Shown here piece after piece: positions 47,218-52,262 of a stretch of 64,000 nt of DNA. The number at the start of each line of letters is the position of its first letter. Position 1 is the first letter of the stretch. The stretch spans positions 1,152,001 through 1,216,000 of the forward strand of contig OZ240219.1 of the NCBI GenBank assembly GCA_965197645.1, in the 5' to 3' direction. Position numbers and translations under genes: made by a program. This DNA is from Dehalococcoidia bacterium (GTDB lineage Bacteria > Chloroflexota > Dehalococcoidia > Plut-88900). The notes beneath the pieces are model-generated. The model saw nothing but the letters and a program-made list of their open reading frames with translations. It did no database searches and had not been told where the DNA came from.

Positions 47218-47742
47218 TCAGCTCTGCACGTTGACGGCGGCTGAGGCCAGGTTTACTCCCGCTATATCCTGAAAATCCTCATCGGCGAGACCCAGGTTGG
47301 CGACGGATAGAATGTAGCTTTCCCCGGCGGCGGTCTCCGATACCTGGAAGGTGAGTTCGGCAAAGATGGACGTAGGAGTGGGTGAGGTGGTGCTTCCGCG
47401 GCGGGCCAGAGCGTAGGTTAGGGTACCGGCAACGTTGTCCACCAGCTCGATGCCGACCAACGGGTCGGGACCGAAGAGGTTGCCGGCCTCGACCTTCACA
47501 AGGGTCAGTCCCTGGGGGTCAAAAGCGAAGTTCAGCTCACCGCCGCTGACGCCCCGGCCATCGGGATCGACCCTCACCTCAACCATTAGCTCATCCCCGG
47601 CTTCCACGGTGACCGATTCGGGTAGTACCTGAACGGATACGCCCCGGATGACATCGGTGTCCGAGTCCCGGACGCAGGCGATGAGCACCAGCAGGGCGCC
47701 GGCCAGCAGGAAGAGCCTGGGAGACAGTCTCGGAAGCTTCAT
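47218..47742 (-). CDS. Cohesin-domain lipoprotein
   Basis: Lipobox LIAC; cohesin-like pattern VEAGDELMVEVRV..VSGGELNFAFDPQGLTLVKVEAG..AELTFQV. Confidence 0.75.
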   Translation of the reverse strand: MKLPRLSPRLFLLAGALLVLIACVRDSDTDVIRGVSVQVLPESVTVEAGDELMVEVRVDPDGRGVSGGELNFAFDPQGLTLVKVEAGNLFGPDPLVGIELVDNVAGTLTYALARRGSTTSPTPTSIFAELTFQVSETAAGESYILSVANLGLADEDFQDIAGVNLASAAVNVQS

Positions 47743-47746
47743 GGAG

Positions 47747-49141
47747 TTAAAGCTCGGCCCCCAGCATAGCCAGGTCCAGGTAGTTGATCACCCCGTCCCC
47801 GTTCAAATCGATCTCCGCTGCGTAACCCGAGTCTCCGGACCCAGTGCCGTAGGCCCCTTGAAGCACGGCTAGATCATCGCGGTCCACCGAGCCGTCGCGG
47901 TTTAGGTCACCGGTGATGATGGTTTCCGGCGTGTCCGGGACCACCGGGGTGGGCGTGCGCGCTCCCAGGGGCACCAGGGTCGGTATGGGAGTAGCCGTCG
48001 CTAGGTCTTCCACCACCTCTCGCTCGGGGAGTAGGGGCAAGCCGATGCTGGACCGCCACCGATTGTCCAGGCCGACCCGATCGAAGCCGTAGACCTGGAC
48101 CAATACGTCGTCCATATTCCCATAGCCGTCCCTGAAAGTCCTGAGCAGCTCGGCCATCTTTCCAGGGCCGTACTCGTCGATCATAAACTCTACGATCGCC
48201 CGAGCCTGGCCATAGAAGAGGATGGTCTCGTCGGGGGTGCCGGGCTGGTTGTTCATGCCTGTGATGGGAAGCAGGCGACCGGTCCTGACGTTTTCCAGGA
48301 GAGCAAGGTCGTAGGAGTAGCTGGGCTCCAGGTTACCGTACTCGGCCAGTCCTTCGTTGAGCCAGTCGGGCACCCGGCGACCGGGGCCCTCGGCGGCCTG
48401 GGCAACCAGCAGATGGGTGACCTCATGGGAGGTAGTGCCGCGGATTTGGGAAGTGAAGCCCATAATCAGAAGGATTCCCTCGCTGCCGTAGGCCTGTCCC
48501 AGCGTCACGAGGCCGCTCTGCGCCGTGTTGCTGGTAAAGGGAAGGGCCGCCTGCATCTGCAGCGGATTGTTGTATATCATTATCCTGATCGGATCGGTCA
48601 ACTCGGTCTGGAGCACGGCGCCCATTCGGCTGAGGGTCTCTATGGAGGTGTCCAGAATCGTCTGGGCCCGGGTGTTGGTTGGCCCGTAGTAGTAGGTGGA
48701 GACCAAGCCTTCTGTCAGGACCTCCCATTCGAACCGGGTGTCCAGGTAGATGAACTCGACGGGATCGGTCTCTACCCGGTTGCCTTCCGCGTCCTGGAAA
48801 ATCCATCGGTATTCGAATCCAGCGCCGTTGGGTATGAACAGGCTCCCTGAGCCGCCCCGGGTCTCCAGGATGTACTCCGCCCTCATCGGGTCGCCTTCTA
48901 TCAGGGTGGCTGGTTCATTGCGGAGGATCTCCCTTCCGATGATCCCAAAGGAGATGGTGACGCTCTCCACGGGCCGGTCGCTGGCAAACTCTACGTAGAA
49001 GGACAGGGTTTCGGGGAAATTGATCTCGTGGCGAACGTCCGCCTCGGTTATCCACTCGTCAGCACTCGTCGGCGCTGCGGCGGTGGCGAAGATCAGTGCT
49101 GCGAGGACGGACACAGCTATTGTGGATACTAAGCGAGACAT
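47747..49141 (-). CDS. Secreted zinc metallopeptidase (peptidase MA/gluzincin-like) with C-terminal dockerin
   Basis: Signal peptide; HEVTH + WLNEGLAEY; P/T linker; twin Ca-loops GDLNRDGSVDRDDL and DLNGDGVINYLDL. Confidence 0.85.
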   Translation of the reverse strand: MSRLVSTIAVSVLAALIFATAAAPTSADEWITEADVRHEINFPETLSFYVEFASDRPVESVTISFGIIGREILRNEPATLIEGDPMRAEYILETRGGSGSLFIPNGAGFEYRWIFQDAEGNRVETDPVEFIYLDTRFEWEVLTEGLVSTYYYGPTNTRAQTILDTSIETLSRMGAVLQTELTDPIRIMIYNNPLQMQAALPFTSNTAQSGLVTLGQAYGSEGILLIMGFTSQIRGTTSHEVTHLLVAQAAEGPGRRVPDWLNEGLAEYGNLEPSYSYDLALLENVRTGRLLPITGMNNQPGTPDETILFYGQARAIVEFMIDEYGPGKMAELLRTFRDGYGNMDDVLVQVYGFDRVGLDNRWRSSIGLPLLPEREVVEDLATATPIPTLVPLGARTPTPVVPDTPETIITGDLNRDGSVDRDDLAVLQGAYGTGSGDSGYAAEIDLNGDGVINYLDLAMLGAEL

Positions 49142-49201
49142 CTAGCTTGGCGAAACTGGGCGCGTTGACACCAGAATCCTATCACGATGAGGGAAGGGGA
49201 A

Positions 49202-50605
49202 TCATTCCTCAGACTCGGGCAGCCTGAACCCGCCGGCCCCTTCCACAGCGAAATAATCCAGCATGGCTATACCCAGGCGGGCGGCGTTGCCCAACAGGTC
49301 CTGGTCTATGTGCTCCAAGGTGTCCTCGGGGGTGTGGATGCGAGAGAGATCTGTGCCTGCGAAGTACATGGCTGGGATTCCGACCGCCAGAAACACGGCG
49401 TGATCACTGGCAAGACCGCGGGGTTGCTGCCCTTCGTAGGCGTCCAGCCCCAGGTCCGTCGCCAAGGTAAGGCCCTGAGCCACCAGCCCGGGATCTCCTC
49501 CCAGCTGAAGCTCCCCCGAGCCTACGGCATCAAAGTTCAGCATCGCCCTGATGCTGGACCTCCCGCCCAGTGGAGATAGGGAATTTACCCAGTTCGCACT
49601 GCCCAGCAGGCCGATCTCCTCCGAGCCGAAGGCGATGAAGTGGATGGAGTAGGGGATGGTATCCACCTTTGTGGTCTCCTGGGCCAGGGCCAACAGTATA
49701 CCAATGCCCGAGCCATTATCGTTGGCGCCGTCCACGTCCGCTACCGTGTCCATGTGAGCGCCCACGACGACTGTGTTGAACCCGGAGACTATCCTGGAGG
49801 CCACCACGTTTCGGCTGGGGGTCGGGAAGCGGAGCAGCCTGACGTCGAGGACCACATCCCCCTCTTCAAGCATCTCCACCAGACGCTCTCCGTCAGCCCG
49901 GGAGATGGTCAACGATGGGATCTCGGCGGGAGAAGAGAGGGTGGCGTACAGCTCCGCCTCTTCGTTGTTGTAGATGATGGCCGCCGAGGCGCCGGCGTTC
50001 TGCGCGTTCTGGACCTTGTCCTCAAAGAACAGGACTCCCCTCTGTATCAACGCGATCTTCCCTTCGAGGCCTTCTTCGGGGTAGGCTTCCGGCTCGCCAA
50101 AGCCGACGTGGACTATCGAAGCGGTGGTCTCTCCCGTGCCGCTCAGATGGACGAAACGAGACACGATGGTCTCTTCCACCGGGCTGGAGATGGTGATAAA
50201 AGGCTCAGTCGTATCGTACCTCTGGACCGTGAACTCCTGTATCTCGATGTCGTAGCCCAGAGCGGTTAGCTCGGCAGCTATGAAGTCGGCGGCAGCCTCT
50301 TCCTGGGCGGAGGCGGACTCCCTTGCGCCCAGCGCCTCCACGAATCGCTGAGTATAGGAGTAGGCTAATTCACCCAGGTTATCGGAGGGGCTGAATATGG
50401 GGTCTGTAGGCGTGGGTTCGGGCGTGGCCTGAGGCGTCGGGACGGGAGTAAAGGTAGGAGAGGGTGTGTCGGCGGAAGGAACCTCCGTAGCTTGTACGGC
50501 GGCCTCTCCCGTCGGCGTTGGAGTATCAGCCGAGTCCCGTATCCTACAGGCCGAGCCTATGACCAGGAGAACCAGGACTATGTATATCAGGTGATGCTTC
50601 TTCAA
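49202..50605 (-). CDS. M28 family aminopeptidase lipoprotein with PA domain
   Basis: Lipobox GSAC, PT linker, GKIALIQRG (PA), GAHMD, GANDNGSG, FGSEEIGLLGS, SDH, HTPED. Confidence 0.9.
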   Translation of the reverse strand: MKKHHLIYIVLVLLVIGSACRIRDSADTPTPTGEAAVQATEVPSADTPSPTFTPVPTPQATPEPTPTDPIFSPSDNLGELAYSYTQRFVEALGARESASAQEEAAADFIAAELTALGYDIEIQEFTVQRYDTTEPFITISSPVEETIVSRFVHLSGTGETTASIVHVGFGEPEAYPEEGLEGKIALIQRGVLFFEDKVQNAQNAGASAAIIYNNEEAELYATLSSPAEIPSLTISRADGERLVEMLEEGDVVLDVRLLRFPTPSRNVVASRIVSGFNTVVVGAHMDTVADVDGANDNGSGIGILLALAQETTKVDTIPYSIHFIAFGSEEIGLLGSANWVNSLSPLGGRSSIRAMLNFDAVGSGELQLGGDPGLVAQGLTLATDLGLDAYEGQQPRGLASDHAVFLAVGIPAMYFAGTDLSRIHTPEDTLEHIDQDLLGNAARLGIAMLDYFAVEGAGGFRLPESEE

Positions 50606-50712
50606 AGGACTTTTACGTGGGGCGCAGTCGTACTACGCCGCGATGGGTTGGTACATTGTAAAACGGGGGAACGGGTTAAAGGTTGCCGTAGCGAGAAACG
50701 GAGGGTTGGGCT

Positions 50713-51150
50713 CTATCTCTTTTTTGGTTTGGCAGGACCTCGCTGAGACTTTCGCTCGGCGCCCGCGTATTTCTCTTCGGGGAAGAGGTCCTCGCCAGGC
50801 CCGCCGCCCTCGCCTAGGGCGCTGCTAACGGCCTCTTCTCCCTCTTCCATCCTGCGAAGAAACTCTTCGCTCACGAAGAACATTCAGATGCAAAATCCGT
50901 CCCGAGCTATGTCCTCGTGGTGCCTTTCGCAAGGGCATATCTTCATGCGATCCCGGTCCGGGTCGCCCTCCACGATCATTCAGGGACAGTACCGGTATCC
51001 GTGCTTTACCTCGTTCTTCGCCAGGCCCTTCTGTACCTCGTCCACGATCTCCGGGTCCGAGTAGAACTTGTAACCGCTCTTCTGAACGTACTTTTCGGAC
51101 ATTTTGACGGCACCGGCTAAGGCTTGTTCGAAGGTCTTCTGTTTCTTCAA
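50713..51150 (-). CDS. Ferredoxin:thioredoxin reductase catalytic-subunit-like protein with two in-frame TGA (probable selenocysteines)
   Basis: SD GGAGAG + TTG; translation ...GLAKNEVKHGYRYCP[TGA]MIVEGDPDRDRMKICPCERHHEDIARDGFCI[TGA]MFFV...; TGA at 50980-82 and 50884-86; final TAG at 50713. Confidence 0.85.
50854..50870 (-). promoter_or_regulatory. Candidate bacterial SECIS hairpin 2
   Basis: GCGAAGA-GTT-TCTTCGC starting at +14 after the second TGA, with a possible lower stem TTCTTCGT/ATGGAAGAG. Confidence 0.6.
50947..50966 (-). promoter_or_regulatory. Candidate bacterial SECIS hairpin 1
   Basis: GCGACCCG-GAC-CGGGATCGC starting at +14 after the first TGA. Confidence 0.6.
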
Positions 51151-51300
51151 TCGGCTCTCCTAGCTGGCTGTGAGGGGTCATAGTTAGTATAACATAGGAG
51201 GTTGTATCCAATCGGCTCGATAGCATGGCGTTGATGTGGAGGTTATAATCGCATCTGGCGTCCCGGCCTGCACGCCATCTTTAACAGACTAATGAAATAT

Positions 51301-51455
51301 GGGGTGTGCAGAGGGCCGAAGCCCATTTATTGGGAGTGCCTGCCGGGGGCCGGGAGTCTGAGATCCTGCCCTGAGCTCGCTTAAGGGGTGTCCCTCAGAA
51401 ATGATTTTCTGTACCCTCCTGGCTAGGAAGGGGGCCAGGGGGATGGGGTCGAAAG
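51301..51455 (+). repeat. Intergenic repeat, family A (with internal inserts)
   Basis: GGGGTGTGCAGAGGGCCGAAGCCC..GGGAGTCTGAG..CCCTCAGA..CCTGGCTAGGAAGGGGGCCAGGGGGATGG..TCGAAA. Confidence 0.7.
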
Positions 51456-51491
51456 AGGTTTATTAGCACCTTACTGAATCATGACTGAATC

Positions 51492-52262
51492 ATGGCCAGA
51501 AACGTTATAGAACAGTTCGGCGAACATGCCGACGACTACTACCGCAGCAAGTACCATTCCCAGGGCGGCGACCTCAACAAGCTGGTCGAACTGGCGTCTC
51601 CAGAGACCCACGAGACGGCCCTGGACATGGCTACGGGCGCCGGCCATACCGCTTTCGCCGTGGCGAAGCGGGCCGGACGGGTCATAGCAAGCGACTTGAC
51701 GGCGCCGATGATCCAACGAGCACGAAAGGCCGCCCACGATGAGGGCATCACCAACGTCGAGTTCCTGCTGTGCGACGCCCACGCCATCCCCTACTCCGAC
51801 GAGACCCTGGATATCGTGACCTGCCGTGCGGCGCCCCACCACTTCAAAGACGTCCGCCTGTTTGTCAGAGAGGCGTGGCGAGTGACCAGGCCGGGAGGCC
51901 GCATGGTCGTCATCGATGGAGCGGCGCCCGAGGACCCGGGCCTGCACGAGTACCTGGACCACCTGGAGGTGGTACGAGACCCGAGTCACAACCGCCGTCT
52001 ATCCCTTTCCGAATGGAGGGACGCGTTCCGAGACGCAGGCTTCCAGCTGGACGTCAGCTATCTGGAGGACGATATCTACGACTTCGATGACTGGGTGATT
52101 CGCTCCGGCGTAACTCCGAAGACCCGCGGGCTCTTGGAAGGAATGATTATCGACGCCACCCCCGAGCAGCACCGCTACTTCCGGTTCGATATCCAGGACG
52201 GGAAGGTGATAAGCTTGCGAAACGATCGGGCGGTGGTGCTCGGGCGCAAGCCCAGACCGTAA
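51492..52262 (+). CDS. Class I SAM-dependent methyltransferase (UbiE-like)
   Basis: [28 protein letters not shown]. Confidence 0.87.

What the first reader, a model, noticed from the sequence alone, without database searches (positions are those of the whole stretch)
50713..51150. Hidden ferredoxin:thioredoxin reductase-like gene with TGA at both redox-active cysteine positions (candidate double-Sec/diselenide FTR)
Seen: a minus-strand frame missed by the ORF track starts at TTG 51150 after GGAGAG, with an extended -10 TGTTATACT near 51186-51194. It reads MKKQKTFEQALAGAVKMSEKYVQKSGYKFYSDPEIVDEVQKGLAKNEVKHGYRYCP-U-MIVEGDPDRDRMKICPCERHHEDIARDGFCI-U-MFFVSEEFLRR...KKR (145 aa; TGA at codons 57 and 89). 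Established: FTR catalytic subunits carry CPC...CPC...CxC. Four Cys ligate the [4Fe-4S] cluster, and the last Cys of the first and third motifs form the active-site disulfide. Here the four cluster ligands remain Cys and exactly the two disulfide positions are TGA. Inference: both are recoded as Sec, giving a Se-Se active site beside an Fe-S cluster. Two random nonsense mutations landing on exactly those codons is unlikely. The usual CHC histidine is Ile. I cannot confirm whether a two-Sec FTR has already been reported.
Basis: partly seen in the sequence, partly recalled or inferred. Interest (0 to 1): 0.93.

Follow-up and report, generated by a model that had tools for sequence, protein, structure and literature searches.

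The report
Known double-selenocysteine FTR-like reductase gene
This is a real gene for an iron-sulfur disulfide reductase whose two active-site cysteines are both replaced by selenocysteine, but this family was first predicted in 2008 and already has a curated database model, so it is a confirmed member and not a discovery.

Summary
Window 51150..50713 (-) reads as a 145-aa FTR catalytic-subunit homologue with in-frame TGA at codons 57 and 89, the two redox-active positions. The Sec reading is well supported:
- The genome has selA, selB, selD (itself with a TGA) and tRNA-Sec(UCA).
- TGA is otherwise an ordinary stop in this genome.
- All 82 distinct homologous genes examined (Dehalococcoidia/Chloroflexota MAGs, 51-83% identity) keep TGA at both sites and the C-I-U motif.
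- Each TGA is followed, 13 nt later, by a conserved 7-bp hairpin with an invariant loop G.
- Codons inside the stems are almost frozen at synonymous sites.
- Contigs from RNA and DNA runs show TGA at both codons.

It is not new. The protein scores 212 bits against NCBIfam NF041072 "FtrB family double-selenoprotein" (cut-off 160). Zhang & Gladyshev (2008) described a two-Sec FTR, and reviews from 2022 and 2026 list it.

Function is inferred: a ferredoxin-type-donor-driven [4Fe-4S] disulfide reductase, probably of thioredoxin. I found no biochemical study.

Side findings:
- Sec/Cys, Cys/Sec and CHU variants exist in other Chloroflexota FTR types.
- This genome has no recognisable flavin thioredoxin reductase.
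- An unannotated 3Cys/1His small ORF lies upstream of ftrB in 45 of 81 loci.

The parts
50713..51150 (-). ftrB-UU coding sequence (145 codons plus TAG stop); TTG start
   Evidence: frame. (PF02943, E 4.3e-23). (NF041072, 212.2 bits vs cut-off 160). TTG in 11 and GTG in 1 of 12 family-f1 loci at the homologous start.
50980..50982 (-). UGA codon 57 = Sec at the first CPC motif (CPU)
   Evidence: TGA in 92 of 92 loci. Aligned to the second Cys of CPC in 4tpu, 7pwe and 7bzk. RNA-library contigs X11 record 8 and X13 record 14 span it with no change listed.
50884..50886 (-). UGA codon 89 = Sec at the third motif (C-I-U)
   Evidence: TGA in 92 of 92 loci. Aligned to the last Cys of CYC/CHC. Covered by contigs in X11, X12, X13 and X3 with no change listed.
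50947..50966 (-). SECIS-like hairpin 1: stem starts 13 nt after UGA-57, G-first apical loop
   Evidence: -10.2 kcal/mol for the 20-mer; 92.5% of cells paired vs 15-44% when slid. Loop G at column 25 invariant. Gly GGC 77/81 and Arg CGC 79/82.
50854..50870 (-). SECIS-like hairpin 2: 7-bp stem starting 13 nt after UGA-89, GUU loop
   Evidence: -7.7 kcal/mol; 94.8% paired vs 31-68% when slid. Loop G invariant. Ser AGC 79/82, Glu GAG 82/82, Leu CTT 79/81, Arg CGC 72/82.
51155..51160 (-). Shine-Dalgarno-like GGAGAG, 4 nt before the TTG start
   Evidence: GGAGG-type boxes at the same place in family-f1 loci.
51186..51194 (-). Extended -10-like TGTTATACT (putative promoter; inferred)
   Evidence: TATAAT in 9 and TATACT in 2 of 12 f1 loci at a similar distance. 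Not called by the consensus scan.

Best explanation
Shown: this is an intact, conserved gene of the curated family NF041072 (FtrB family double-selenoprotein) in a Dehalococcoidia genome that has a full selenocysteine system. Both in-frame UGAs sit at the positions of the two redox-active cysteines of ferredoxin:thioredoxin reductase catalytic subunits. Each UGA is followed at a fixed distance by a conserved hairpin with a conserved loop G, as expected of bacterial SECIS elements.

Inferred mechanism: SelB with Sec-tRNA(UCA) reads both UGAs. The protein binds a [4Fe-4S] cluster through Cys55, Cys72, Cys74 and Cys87, and carries a Sec57-Sec89 diselenide next to the cluster. As in FTR (mechanism passage in PMC3838966), one electron from a ferredoxin-type donor opens the bridge. 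One chalcogen (here Se; by recalled FTR numbering, Sec89 = Cys87) bonds to a cluster iron. The other (Sec57 = Cys57) attacks the substrate disulfide. A second electron then releases the product.

The enzyme lacks the plant-type variable subunit and the CHC histidine. By sequence it is nearer to the archaeal/bacterial FTR-like group (4tpu, 7pwe) than to chloroplast FTR. The most likely substrate is thioredoxin (my odds about 0.5). This genome has a canonical WCGPC thioredoxin but no recognisable flavin thioredoxin reductase.
For: Family: PF02943 E 4.3e-23. NF041072 212.2 bits vs cut-off 160, and 202 bits with '2 TGA' in the genome search. PDB: 4tpu_A E 6.6e-14, 7pwe_A E 2.2e-13, classical FTRs E 7.7e-5 to 3e-3, with all three Cys motifs aligned.

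Sec machinery: selA 547.7 bits, selB 346.8 bits, selD 379.7 bits with 1 TGA, and tRNA-Sec 66.4 bits with anticodon tca.

TGA is a normal stop: it ends 746 of 2,252 long frames.

Conservation: TGA+TGA and C-I-U in 92 of 92 loci, which are 82 distinct genes. 12 of 12 family-f1 genomes carry it, plus G040.

Hairpins: 94.8% and 92.5% of cells paired vs 31-68% and 15-44% when slid. Normalised codon entropy is 0.06-0.24 in 5 stem codons vs 0.53-0.90 in 21 other conserved codons of at least 4-fold degeneracy, Mann-Whitney p = 3.5e-4. L062, L101 and L102 keep a hairpin in a shifted register with different codons and residues. The genome's own selD UGA has a hairpin with a GUA loop.

Either site can be Sec or Cys in other FTR types: L113 is CPU...CRC, L117 is CPC...CYU, L118 is CPC...CHU.

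Reads: no change at either TGA in 3 RNA-library runs and 1 other run.

Substrate clue: thioredoxin at 127 bits is above its cut-off. The best TrxR-model hit in G000 scores only 73 bits vs cut-off 343 and is a soxA-like flavoprotein. No FTRV was found. This is the only PF02943 gene in the genome.

Prior description: PMC2398784.
Against: - No protein-level evidence of Sec insertion or of full-length product.
- RNA-library contigs cannot prove transcription (tool caveat).
- The 63-nt folds after each UGA are no more stable than shuffles (z = -0.54 and -0.50).
- No pair shows a two-sided compensatory change in register (0 in both stems), and the stems encode conserved residues (GDP..DR; SEEFLR), so protein constraint explains part of their conservation.
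- No Rfam family matched.
- The AlphaFold2 model is poor (mean pLDDT 57.1, below 50 across most of the Cys-rich half), so the Se-Se geometry is untested.
- The histidine next to the active site in classical FTR is Ile in all 92 loci, so the chemistry may differ.
- No redox partner is encoded beside the gene in the window.
- The 'main thioredoxin reductase' idea does not generalise: 10 of 11 other f1 genomes carrying FtrB-UU also have a TrxR-like gene of 278-360 bits.
Confidence: 0.9

Rival explanations
1. Same double-Sec enzyme, but its physiological substrate is not thioredoxin. It could be another disulfide or selenosulfide, a peroxide-damaged protein, or the small 3Cys/1His protein encoded upstream in many relatives.
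For: The nearest solved homologues are FTR-like proteins of non-photosynthetic organisms, not chloroplast FTR. The CHC histidine is Ile in 92 of 92 loci. TrxR-like genes coexist with FtrB-UU in 10 of 11 other f1 genomes, so a separate role is plausible. An unannotated small Cys/His ORF lies directly upstream in 45 of 81 loci. L113 is fused to two glutaredoxin-like domains.
Against: G000 and G005 have no TrxR-like gene at E <= 1e-30, yet G000 has a canonical thioredoxin. The small ORF was not found in 0 of 5 genomes of other FtrB-UU clades or in G040. There is no direct evidence for any alternative substrate.
Confidence: 0.35
2. The gene is a pseudogene, or the TGAs are assembly or sequencing errors, so only truncated peptides are made.
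For: Under table 11 the frame is broken twice. Gene callers elsewhere truncated homologues at site 1 (P0013-15) or site 2 (P0011-12).
Against: TGA+TGA in 82 distinct genes at 51-83% protein identity, with the frame otherwise open to one stop. Strong purifying selection downstream of both TGAs (41 invariant columns). No difference at either codon in contigs of four runs. The score is above an equivalog cut-off.
Confidence: 0.01
3. UGA is decoded here as a standard amino acid (Trp, Gly or Cys) through a variant genetic code or near-cognate read-through, not as Sec.
For: Nine database homologues (P0002-P0010) were deposited with W at both sites, showing that gene callers chose a TGA=Trp code for those short contigs.
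Against: TGA ends 746 of 2,252 long frames in this genome. selA and selB are open with no internal stop. A complete Sec system and fixed-distance hairpins are present. The positions are catalytic Cys in homologues, where Trp would be inactive.
Confidence: 0.02

Closest known systems
NCBIfam NF041072 FtrB_double_U, 'FtrB family double-selenoprotein' (equivalog)
   Same: Full-length match (residues 3-124 to model positions 1-121) at 212.2 bits vs cut-off 160, with two in-frame TGAs. This gene is a member.
   Different: Nothing found that sets it apart. Its subclade reads M-I-V-E-G-D-P after Sec57 where most relatives read M-P/T-L-S-G-D-P.
Two-Sec FTR homologue from the Global Ocean Sampling metagenome (Zhang & Gladyshev 2008, PMC2398784)
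   Same: [quoted passage not shown]
   Different: That was a single marine read with no genome context. I could not see its sequence (Figure 6A, Dataset S2; supplements closed), so identity to this clade is presumed from the NF041072 link in the 2026 review table.
FTR-like proteins of non-photosynthetic prokaryotes: PDB 4tpu_A (deposited name 'Rubredoxin', 173 aa) and 7pwe_A (196 aa)
   Same: Best solved relatives (E 6.6e-14 and 2.2e-13). Same CPC...CPC...CxC spacing and no His in the third motif (CYC).
   Different: They have Cys at both redox sites, Tyr where this protein has Ile, and extra domains. This protein instead has a 40-residue acidic-then-basic tail with a conserved G-x-x-L-F. That 4tpu is the Methanosarcina acetivorans rubredoxin-fused FDR and forms a homodimer is recalled, not checked. 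Searches for it found no paper.
Chloroplast/cyanobacterial ferredoxin:thioredoxin reductase catalytic subunit (for example 1dj7_A, 7bzk_A, 2puk_A)
   Same: Same Pfam family. Same three Cys motifs with the redox-active pair beside a [4Fe-4S] cluster. The mechanism template is from PMC3838966.
   Different: Weak similarity (E 7.7e-5 to 3e-3). CHC His is replaced by Ile. No variable subunit in the genome, and FTRV is reported as exclusive to oxygenic phototrophs (PMC9025218). Sec replaces Cys at both active sites.

Membership tests
NF041072 FtrB family double-selenoprotein | Score at or above the curated equivalog cut-off (160 bits) over the full model | tested here: met
   212.2 bits, residues 3-124 to model positions 1-121; 202 bits on the genome.
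NF041072 FtrB family double-selenoprotein | Two in-frame UGA codons at the two redox-active Cys positions | tested here: met
   Codons 57 and 89, aligned to Cys of CPC and CYC/CHC in solved homologues.
Bacterial selenoprotein gene | Genome encodes selA, selB, selD and tRNA-Sec | tested here: met
   547.7, 346.8 and 379.7 bits, all above cut-offs. RF01852 66.4 bits, and ARAGORN calls tRNA-SeC with anticodon tca.
Bacterial selenoprotein gene | [quoted passage not shown] | tested here: met
   Both stems start at +17 and the loops start at +24/+25 with an invariant G. Pairing and synonymous-site constraint. Caveats: no two-sided covariation in register, and fold z-scores are not significant.
Bacterial selenoprotein gene | Cys-containing homologues aligned at the Sec position | tested here: met
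   PDB homologues have Cys at both sites. L113 (Sec/Cys), L117 and L118 (Cys/Sec). P0011 and P0012 have Cys at site 1.
Bacterial selenoprotein gene | Selenium shown in the protein (75Se labelling or mass spectrometry) | not testable with these tools
   No proteomic data available. No paper found.
FTR catalytic subunit (Pfam PF02943 FeThRed_B) | Pfam match above the gathering score | tested here: met
   81.8 bits vs 22. It is the only such gene in the genome.
FTR catalytic subunit (Pfam PF02943 FeThRed_B) | Four Cys ligands for the [4Fe-4S] cluster (first Cys of motifs 1 and 3, both Cys of motif 2; ligand assignment recalled from the Synechocystis structure) | tested here: met
   C55, C72, C74 and C87 are invariant in 56 of 56 aligned sequences. 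Cluster binding itself is not testable here.
Classical (chloroplast/cyanobacterial) FTR heterodimer | CHC third motif with the active-site histidine | tested here: not met
   C-I-U, with Ile in 92 of 92 loci.
Classical (chloroplast/cyanobacterial) FTR heterodimer | Variable subunit FTRV (PF02941) present | tested here: not met
   0 matches in G000 at E <= 0.01; the control rings in Synechococcus.
Classical (chloroplast/cyanobacterial) FTR heterodimer | Ferredoxin-dependent reduction of thioredoxin | not testable with these tools
   Indirect only: a thioredoxin is present and no TrxR is recognised in G000.

The most novel reading that the evidence does not exclude
In lineages such as this genome, where no flavin thioredoxin reductase is recognisable, the diselenide [4Fe-4S] FtrB would be the cell's only thioredoxin-reducing enzyme. 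Across the family it would work with a so-far unannotated ~95-residue protein with invariant C-x-C...C-x-x-H. That protein is encoded immediately upstream in 42 of 44 loci of one subclade and is unlinked in all 12 genomes of this one. It could act as a new kind of partner subunit, electron donor or substrate.
Probability: 0.15. Interest if true: 0.55.

Novelty: already known. Interest (0 to 1): 0.3.

Why it matters
A diselenide beside a [4Fe-4S] cluster is chemically unusual. If FTR chemistry holds, the catalytic intermediate would carry an Fe-Se bond. No biochemical study turned up in my searches. The gene family itself has been predicted since 2008 and is curated, so this window adds a confirmed, complete-genome example, not a discovery.

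- Both Sec codons are invariant across 82 Dehalococcoidia genes, with two in-gene SECIS hairpins visible as frozen synonymous sites.
- Sec can replace either active-site Cys independently in other FTR types.
- There is a lead on a possible partner protein.

Tried and rejected
- Thermodynamic test of the hairpins: 63-nt pieces fold no better than shuffles. This is not informative for short stems.
- Rfam scan of 50000-52000 at E <= 10: five chance-level matches, no SECIS family.
- Consensus scan: no sigma-70 promoter, and one unrelated terminator-like site.
- Fixed-register covariation: 0 two-sided changes in either stem. I replaced this with a synonymous-site test.
- AlphaFold2 on a 56-row family alignment: mean pLDDT 57.1. 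This was too poor for a fold search or for Se-Se geometry, so no fold search was run.
- Neighbourhood in the window: M28 peptidase, MA peptidase with dockerin, cohesin, methyltransferases, ThiD kinase and isochorismatase. No redox partner.
- Idea that FtrB-UU replaces flavin thioredoxin reductase across the family: rejected. 10 of 11 other f1 genomes have a TrxR-like gene. Only G000 and G005 lack one.
- Idea that the upstream small ORF is an obligate partner: rejected. 0 of 5 genomes of other clades have it, and G040 lacks it.
- Variant search: my motif search found nothing in 2 of the 6 variant loci fetched (L114, L115).
- Phylum sample: only G000 itself passed the NF041072 cut-off among 401 genomes, so that sample says little about distribution.
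- Literature: searches for 7PWE and for the M. acetivorans FTR-like enzyme found no paper.
- Parts of the stretch without RNA-contig cover are no evidence either way.
- Supplements were closed. Dataset S2 and the figures of PMC2398784, and the BSepDB tables, may already hold this clade.

Full report
**1. Observation**

The minus-strand frame 51150..50713 is exactly as described.
- It starts at TTG 51150, 4 nt after GGAGAG.
- It has 145 codons, with TGA at codon 57 (50982-50980) and codon 89 (50886-50884), and ends at TAG 50715-50713.
- Table 11 splits it into two 56-aa ORFs, which explains why an ORF track missed it.
- The motif is C55-P-U57 ... C72-P-C74 ... C87-I88-U89.

**2. Family**

- Pfam gives FeThRed_B (PF02943), E 4.3e-23.
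- NCBIfam gives NF041072, "FtrB family double-selenoprotein". This is an equivalog model, matched at 212.2 bits against a cut-off of 160 over the whole model.
- Against solved structures the best relatives are 4tpu_A (E 6.6e-14) and 7pwe_A (E 2.2e-13). Chloroplast and cyanobacterial FTR catalytic chains are weaker (E 7.7e-5 to 3e-3).
- In the printed alignments the two U positions align with the second Cys of the first CPC and the last Cys of CYC/CHC.
- It is the only PF02943 gene in the genome.

**3. Is UGA read as Sec?**

The window lies in a single 3.21-Mb contig. That genome encodes:
- selA, 547.7 bits;
- selB, 346.8 bits;
- selD, 379.7 bits, itself with one in-frame TGA;
- a tRNA-Sec, 66.4 bits, with anticodon tca by ARAGORN.

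TGA is an ordinary stop in this genome. It closes 746 of 2,252 stop-to-stop frames of at least 300 codons. This excludes a TGA-sense genetic code.

**4. Conservation**

- All 11 other genomes of the same family, plus one genome of another family in the class, carry the gene above cut-off with "2 TGA" (13 of 41 relatives including G000).
- A pattern scan of species-representative genomes found 119 stretches that encode a relative. The best 80 were kept. All are titled Dehalococcoidia, Chloroflexota/Chloroflexi, one Chloroflexia, one SAR202 or one "uncultured bacterium", at 51-83% identity.
- In 92 of 92 loci both codons are TGA and the third motif is C-I-U. After removing 10 duplicates between the two search routes, these are 82 distinct genes.
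- A 56-row protein alignment has 41 invariant columns. These include all six Cys/Sec positions and a G-x-x-L-F in the C-terminal tail.
- In an evenly drawn phylum sample, only G000 itself passed the cut-off among 401 genomes. The family is therefore confined to part of the class.

**5. SECIS elements**

Geometry: both UGAs are followed by a hairpin whose stem begins 13 nt after the codon.
- Hairpin 1 is at 50966-50947, with -10.2 kcal/mol for the 20-mer.
- Hairpin 2 is at 50870-50854, a 7-bp stem with a GUU loop, at -7.7 kcal/mol.

Pairing across 82 genes:
- The fixed-register stems are paired in 92.5% and 94.8% of cells. With slid partners the figures are 15-44% and 31-68%.
- A G is invariant at the first or second position of each apical loop.

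Weaknesses:
- There are no two-sided compensatory changes in register.
- Fold energies of 63-nt pieces are not better than shuffles.
- The stems encode conserved residues.

I therefore looked at synonymous sites.
- Within the stems: Gly+5 is GGC in 77 of 81, Arg+11 is CGC in 79 of 82, Ser+37 is AGC in 79 of 82, Leu+41 is CTT in 79 of 81, Arg+42 is CGC in 72 of 82, and the loop Glu+39 is GAG in 82 of 82.
- Elsewhere in the gene the same amino acids use codons freely. For example, Leu at -14 is CTG in 55 and CTT in only 7.
- Normalised codon entropy is 0.06-0.24 in these 5 stem codons, against 0.53-0.90 in 21 other conserved codons of at least 4-fold degeneracy (Mann-Whitney p = 3.5e-4). The sequences are related, so this p-value is indicative only.
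- Three genes that depart from the consensus (L062, L101, L102) keep a 6-7-bp hairpin in a register shifted by one. L101 even changes two residues to do so.
- The genome's own selD UGA is followed by a hairpin with a GUA loop.

**6. Reads**

One search found 21 runs that hold at least part of the stretch, from 12 studies. I laid four of them.
- Contigs of two RNA libraries labelled sponge metagenome span UGA-57. X11 record 8 covers 50918-51145 and X13 record 14 covers 50939-51126.
- Several short contigs in all three RNA runs cover UGA-89.
- A run from another study (X3) covers the whole gene.
- No other letter is listed at either codon.
- These are contigs. By the tool's own caveat they do not prove transcription.

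**7. What gene callers did elsewhere**

Of the 14 database homologues, the alignment shows:
- nine full-length ones carry W at both sites (TGA called as Trp);
- three stop at site 1;
- two have Cys at site 1 and stop at site 2.

The last two suggest a Cys/Sec form. Each is a single-member record, so error cannot be excluded.

**8. Variants in other FTR types of the phylum**

From:
- L113 has CPU...CRC (Sec/Cys) fused to two glutaredoxin-like domains.
- L117 has CPC...CYU with a C-terminal rubredoxin-like CxxC...CxxC.
- L118 is a classical type with CHU.
- My motif search found nothing in L114 and L115.

Either redox-active site can therefore be Sec on its own. This fits both sites being catalytic chalcogens.

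**9. Mechanism (inferred)**

FTR takes one electron into its [4Fe-4S] cluster. One active-site sulfur then bonds to a cluster iron while the other attacks the thioredoxin disulfide. A second electron releases the product (PMC3838966, passage read).

Carried over to this protein, Sec57 and Sec89 would form a diselenide and an Fe-Se intermediate. Which Sec plays which role follows recalled Synechocystis numbering (Cys57 attacks, Cys87 binds iron). I did not check that here.

Differences from classical FTR:
- Ile replaces the CHC histidine in all 92 loci.
- No variable subunit is present (PF02941: 0 hits). FTRV is reported as exclusive to oxygenic phototrophs (PMC9025218).

**10. Substrate**

- G000 has a canonical thioredoxin with a WCGPC motif, 127 bits against a cut-off of 96.8. 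It lies 137 nt upstream of tRNA-Sec on the same strand.
- Its best match to the thioredoxin-reductase model scores 73 bits against a cut-off of 343. That protein is a soxA-like flavoprotein. FtrB-UU is therefore the only recognisable thioredoxin-reducing enzyme I found in this genome.
- This does not generalise. 37 of 41 relatives have a TrxR-like match at E <= 1e-30, including 10 of 11 other f1 genomes. Only G000 and G005 in f1 lack one.
- I therefore give thioredoxin about even odds as the substrate.

**11. A possible partner (side finding)**

- In 45 of 81 loci, a conserved ORF with an approximately 95-residue core lies on the same strand 5-216 nt upstream of ftrB. It has invariant C-x-C, P, F and C-x-x-H.
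- It is present in 42 of 44 loci of the M-P-L/V subclade, 3 of 26 of the M-T-L/I subclade and 0 of 11 of this genome's M-I-V subclade.
- It has no Pfam or NCBIfam match.
- G000 has an unlinked copy at C1:564475-564786.
- In the 41-genome relatives set it occurs in exactly the 12 f1 genomes. It occurs in none of the 28 genomes without FtrB-UU, and it is also absent from G040.
- It was not found in 5 of 5 genomes of other FtrB-UU clades.
- It is therefore a lineage-restricted associate and not an obligate partner.

**12. Novelty**

- Zhang & Gladyshev 2008 reported FTR homologues as a new selenoprotein family in the GOS metagenome. [quoted passage not shown]
- Review tables of 2022 (PMC9312934) and 2026 (PMC13188914) list the family. 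The 2026 table gives NF041072, motif CxU and 2 Sec, and its only reference is the 2008 paper.
- BSepDB (PMC13326102, passage) lists Dehalococcoidia among selenoprotein-rich bacteria.
- No paper in the library pairs "diselenide" with "ferredoxin thioredoxin reductase", and none uses "double-selenoprotein".
- I found no biochemical characterisation. Subscription papers and supplements were not searchable.

**Verdict**

Interest is 0.3.

Noticed in passing
L057-L112 (45 loci), directly upstream of ftrB; G000:C1:564475-564786 (-) = L120:2976-3266 (outside the window): Unannotated conserved small ORF (core of about 95 aa; invariant C-x-C, P, F and C-x-x-H; no Pfam or NCBIfam hit). It lies upstream of ftrB-UU on the same strand in 45 of 81 loci (42 of 44 in one subclade). 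It is unlinked in all 12 family-f1 genomes, and was not found in 5 of 5 genomes of other clades or in G040.
   Followed up: partly
L014:1497-2058 (G000:C1:214537-215070, outside the window): The genome's canonical thioredoxin gene (WCGPC motif, 127 bits) lies 137 nt upstream of the tRNA-Sec gene on the same strand.
   Followed up: no
G000 whole genome; also G005: No thioredoxin-reductase-like gene at E <= 1e-30 in G000 or G005 (each a single contig). 37 of the 41 relatives searched have one, including the other 10 f1 genomes. The best G000 hit (73 bits) is a soxA-like flavoprotein.
   Followed up: partly
L113 (G087:C292), L117 (G302:C23), L118 (G032:C7): Single-Sec FTR variants in other Chloroflexota: CPU...CRC fused to two glutaredoxin-like domains; CPC...CYU with a C-terminal rubredoxin-like domain; and a classical type with CHU.
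   Followed up: partly
window 47218-50605 (-): Three tandem genes downstream of ftrB encode an M28 peptidase with a PA domain, an MA-superfamily peptidase with a dockerin domain, and a cohesin-domain protein. This is a possible cohesin-dockerin pair in a Dehalococcoidia genome.
   Followed up: no
window 50853-50903: This 50-nt stretch (UGA-89 plus hairpin 2) piles up far more contigs than its flanks in all four runs laid (for example depth 1042 vs 5-13 in X3). Many contigs diverge on both sides. It is near-identical across many related organisms in those samples.
   Followed up: no
G000:C1:941844-942767 (L010, outside the window): selD is itself a selenoprotein gene (one in-frame TGA at codon 11 of the match), with a hairpin and GUA loop downstream.
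   Followed up: partly
L116 (G040:C120:22465-23382): In G040 the double-Sec ftrB sits back-to-back with a second, weakly matching all-Cys FTR-like frame (29.7 bits, opposite strand).
   Followed up: no
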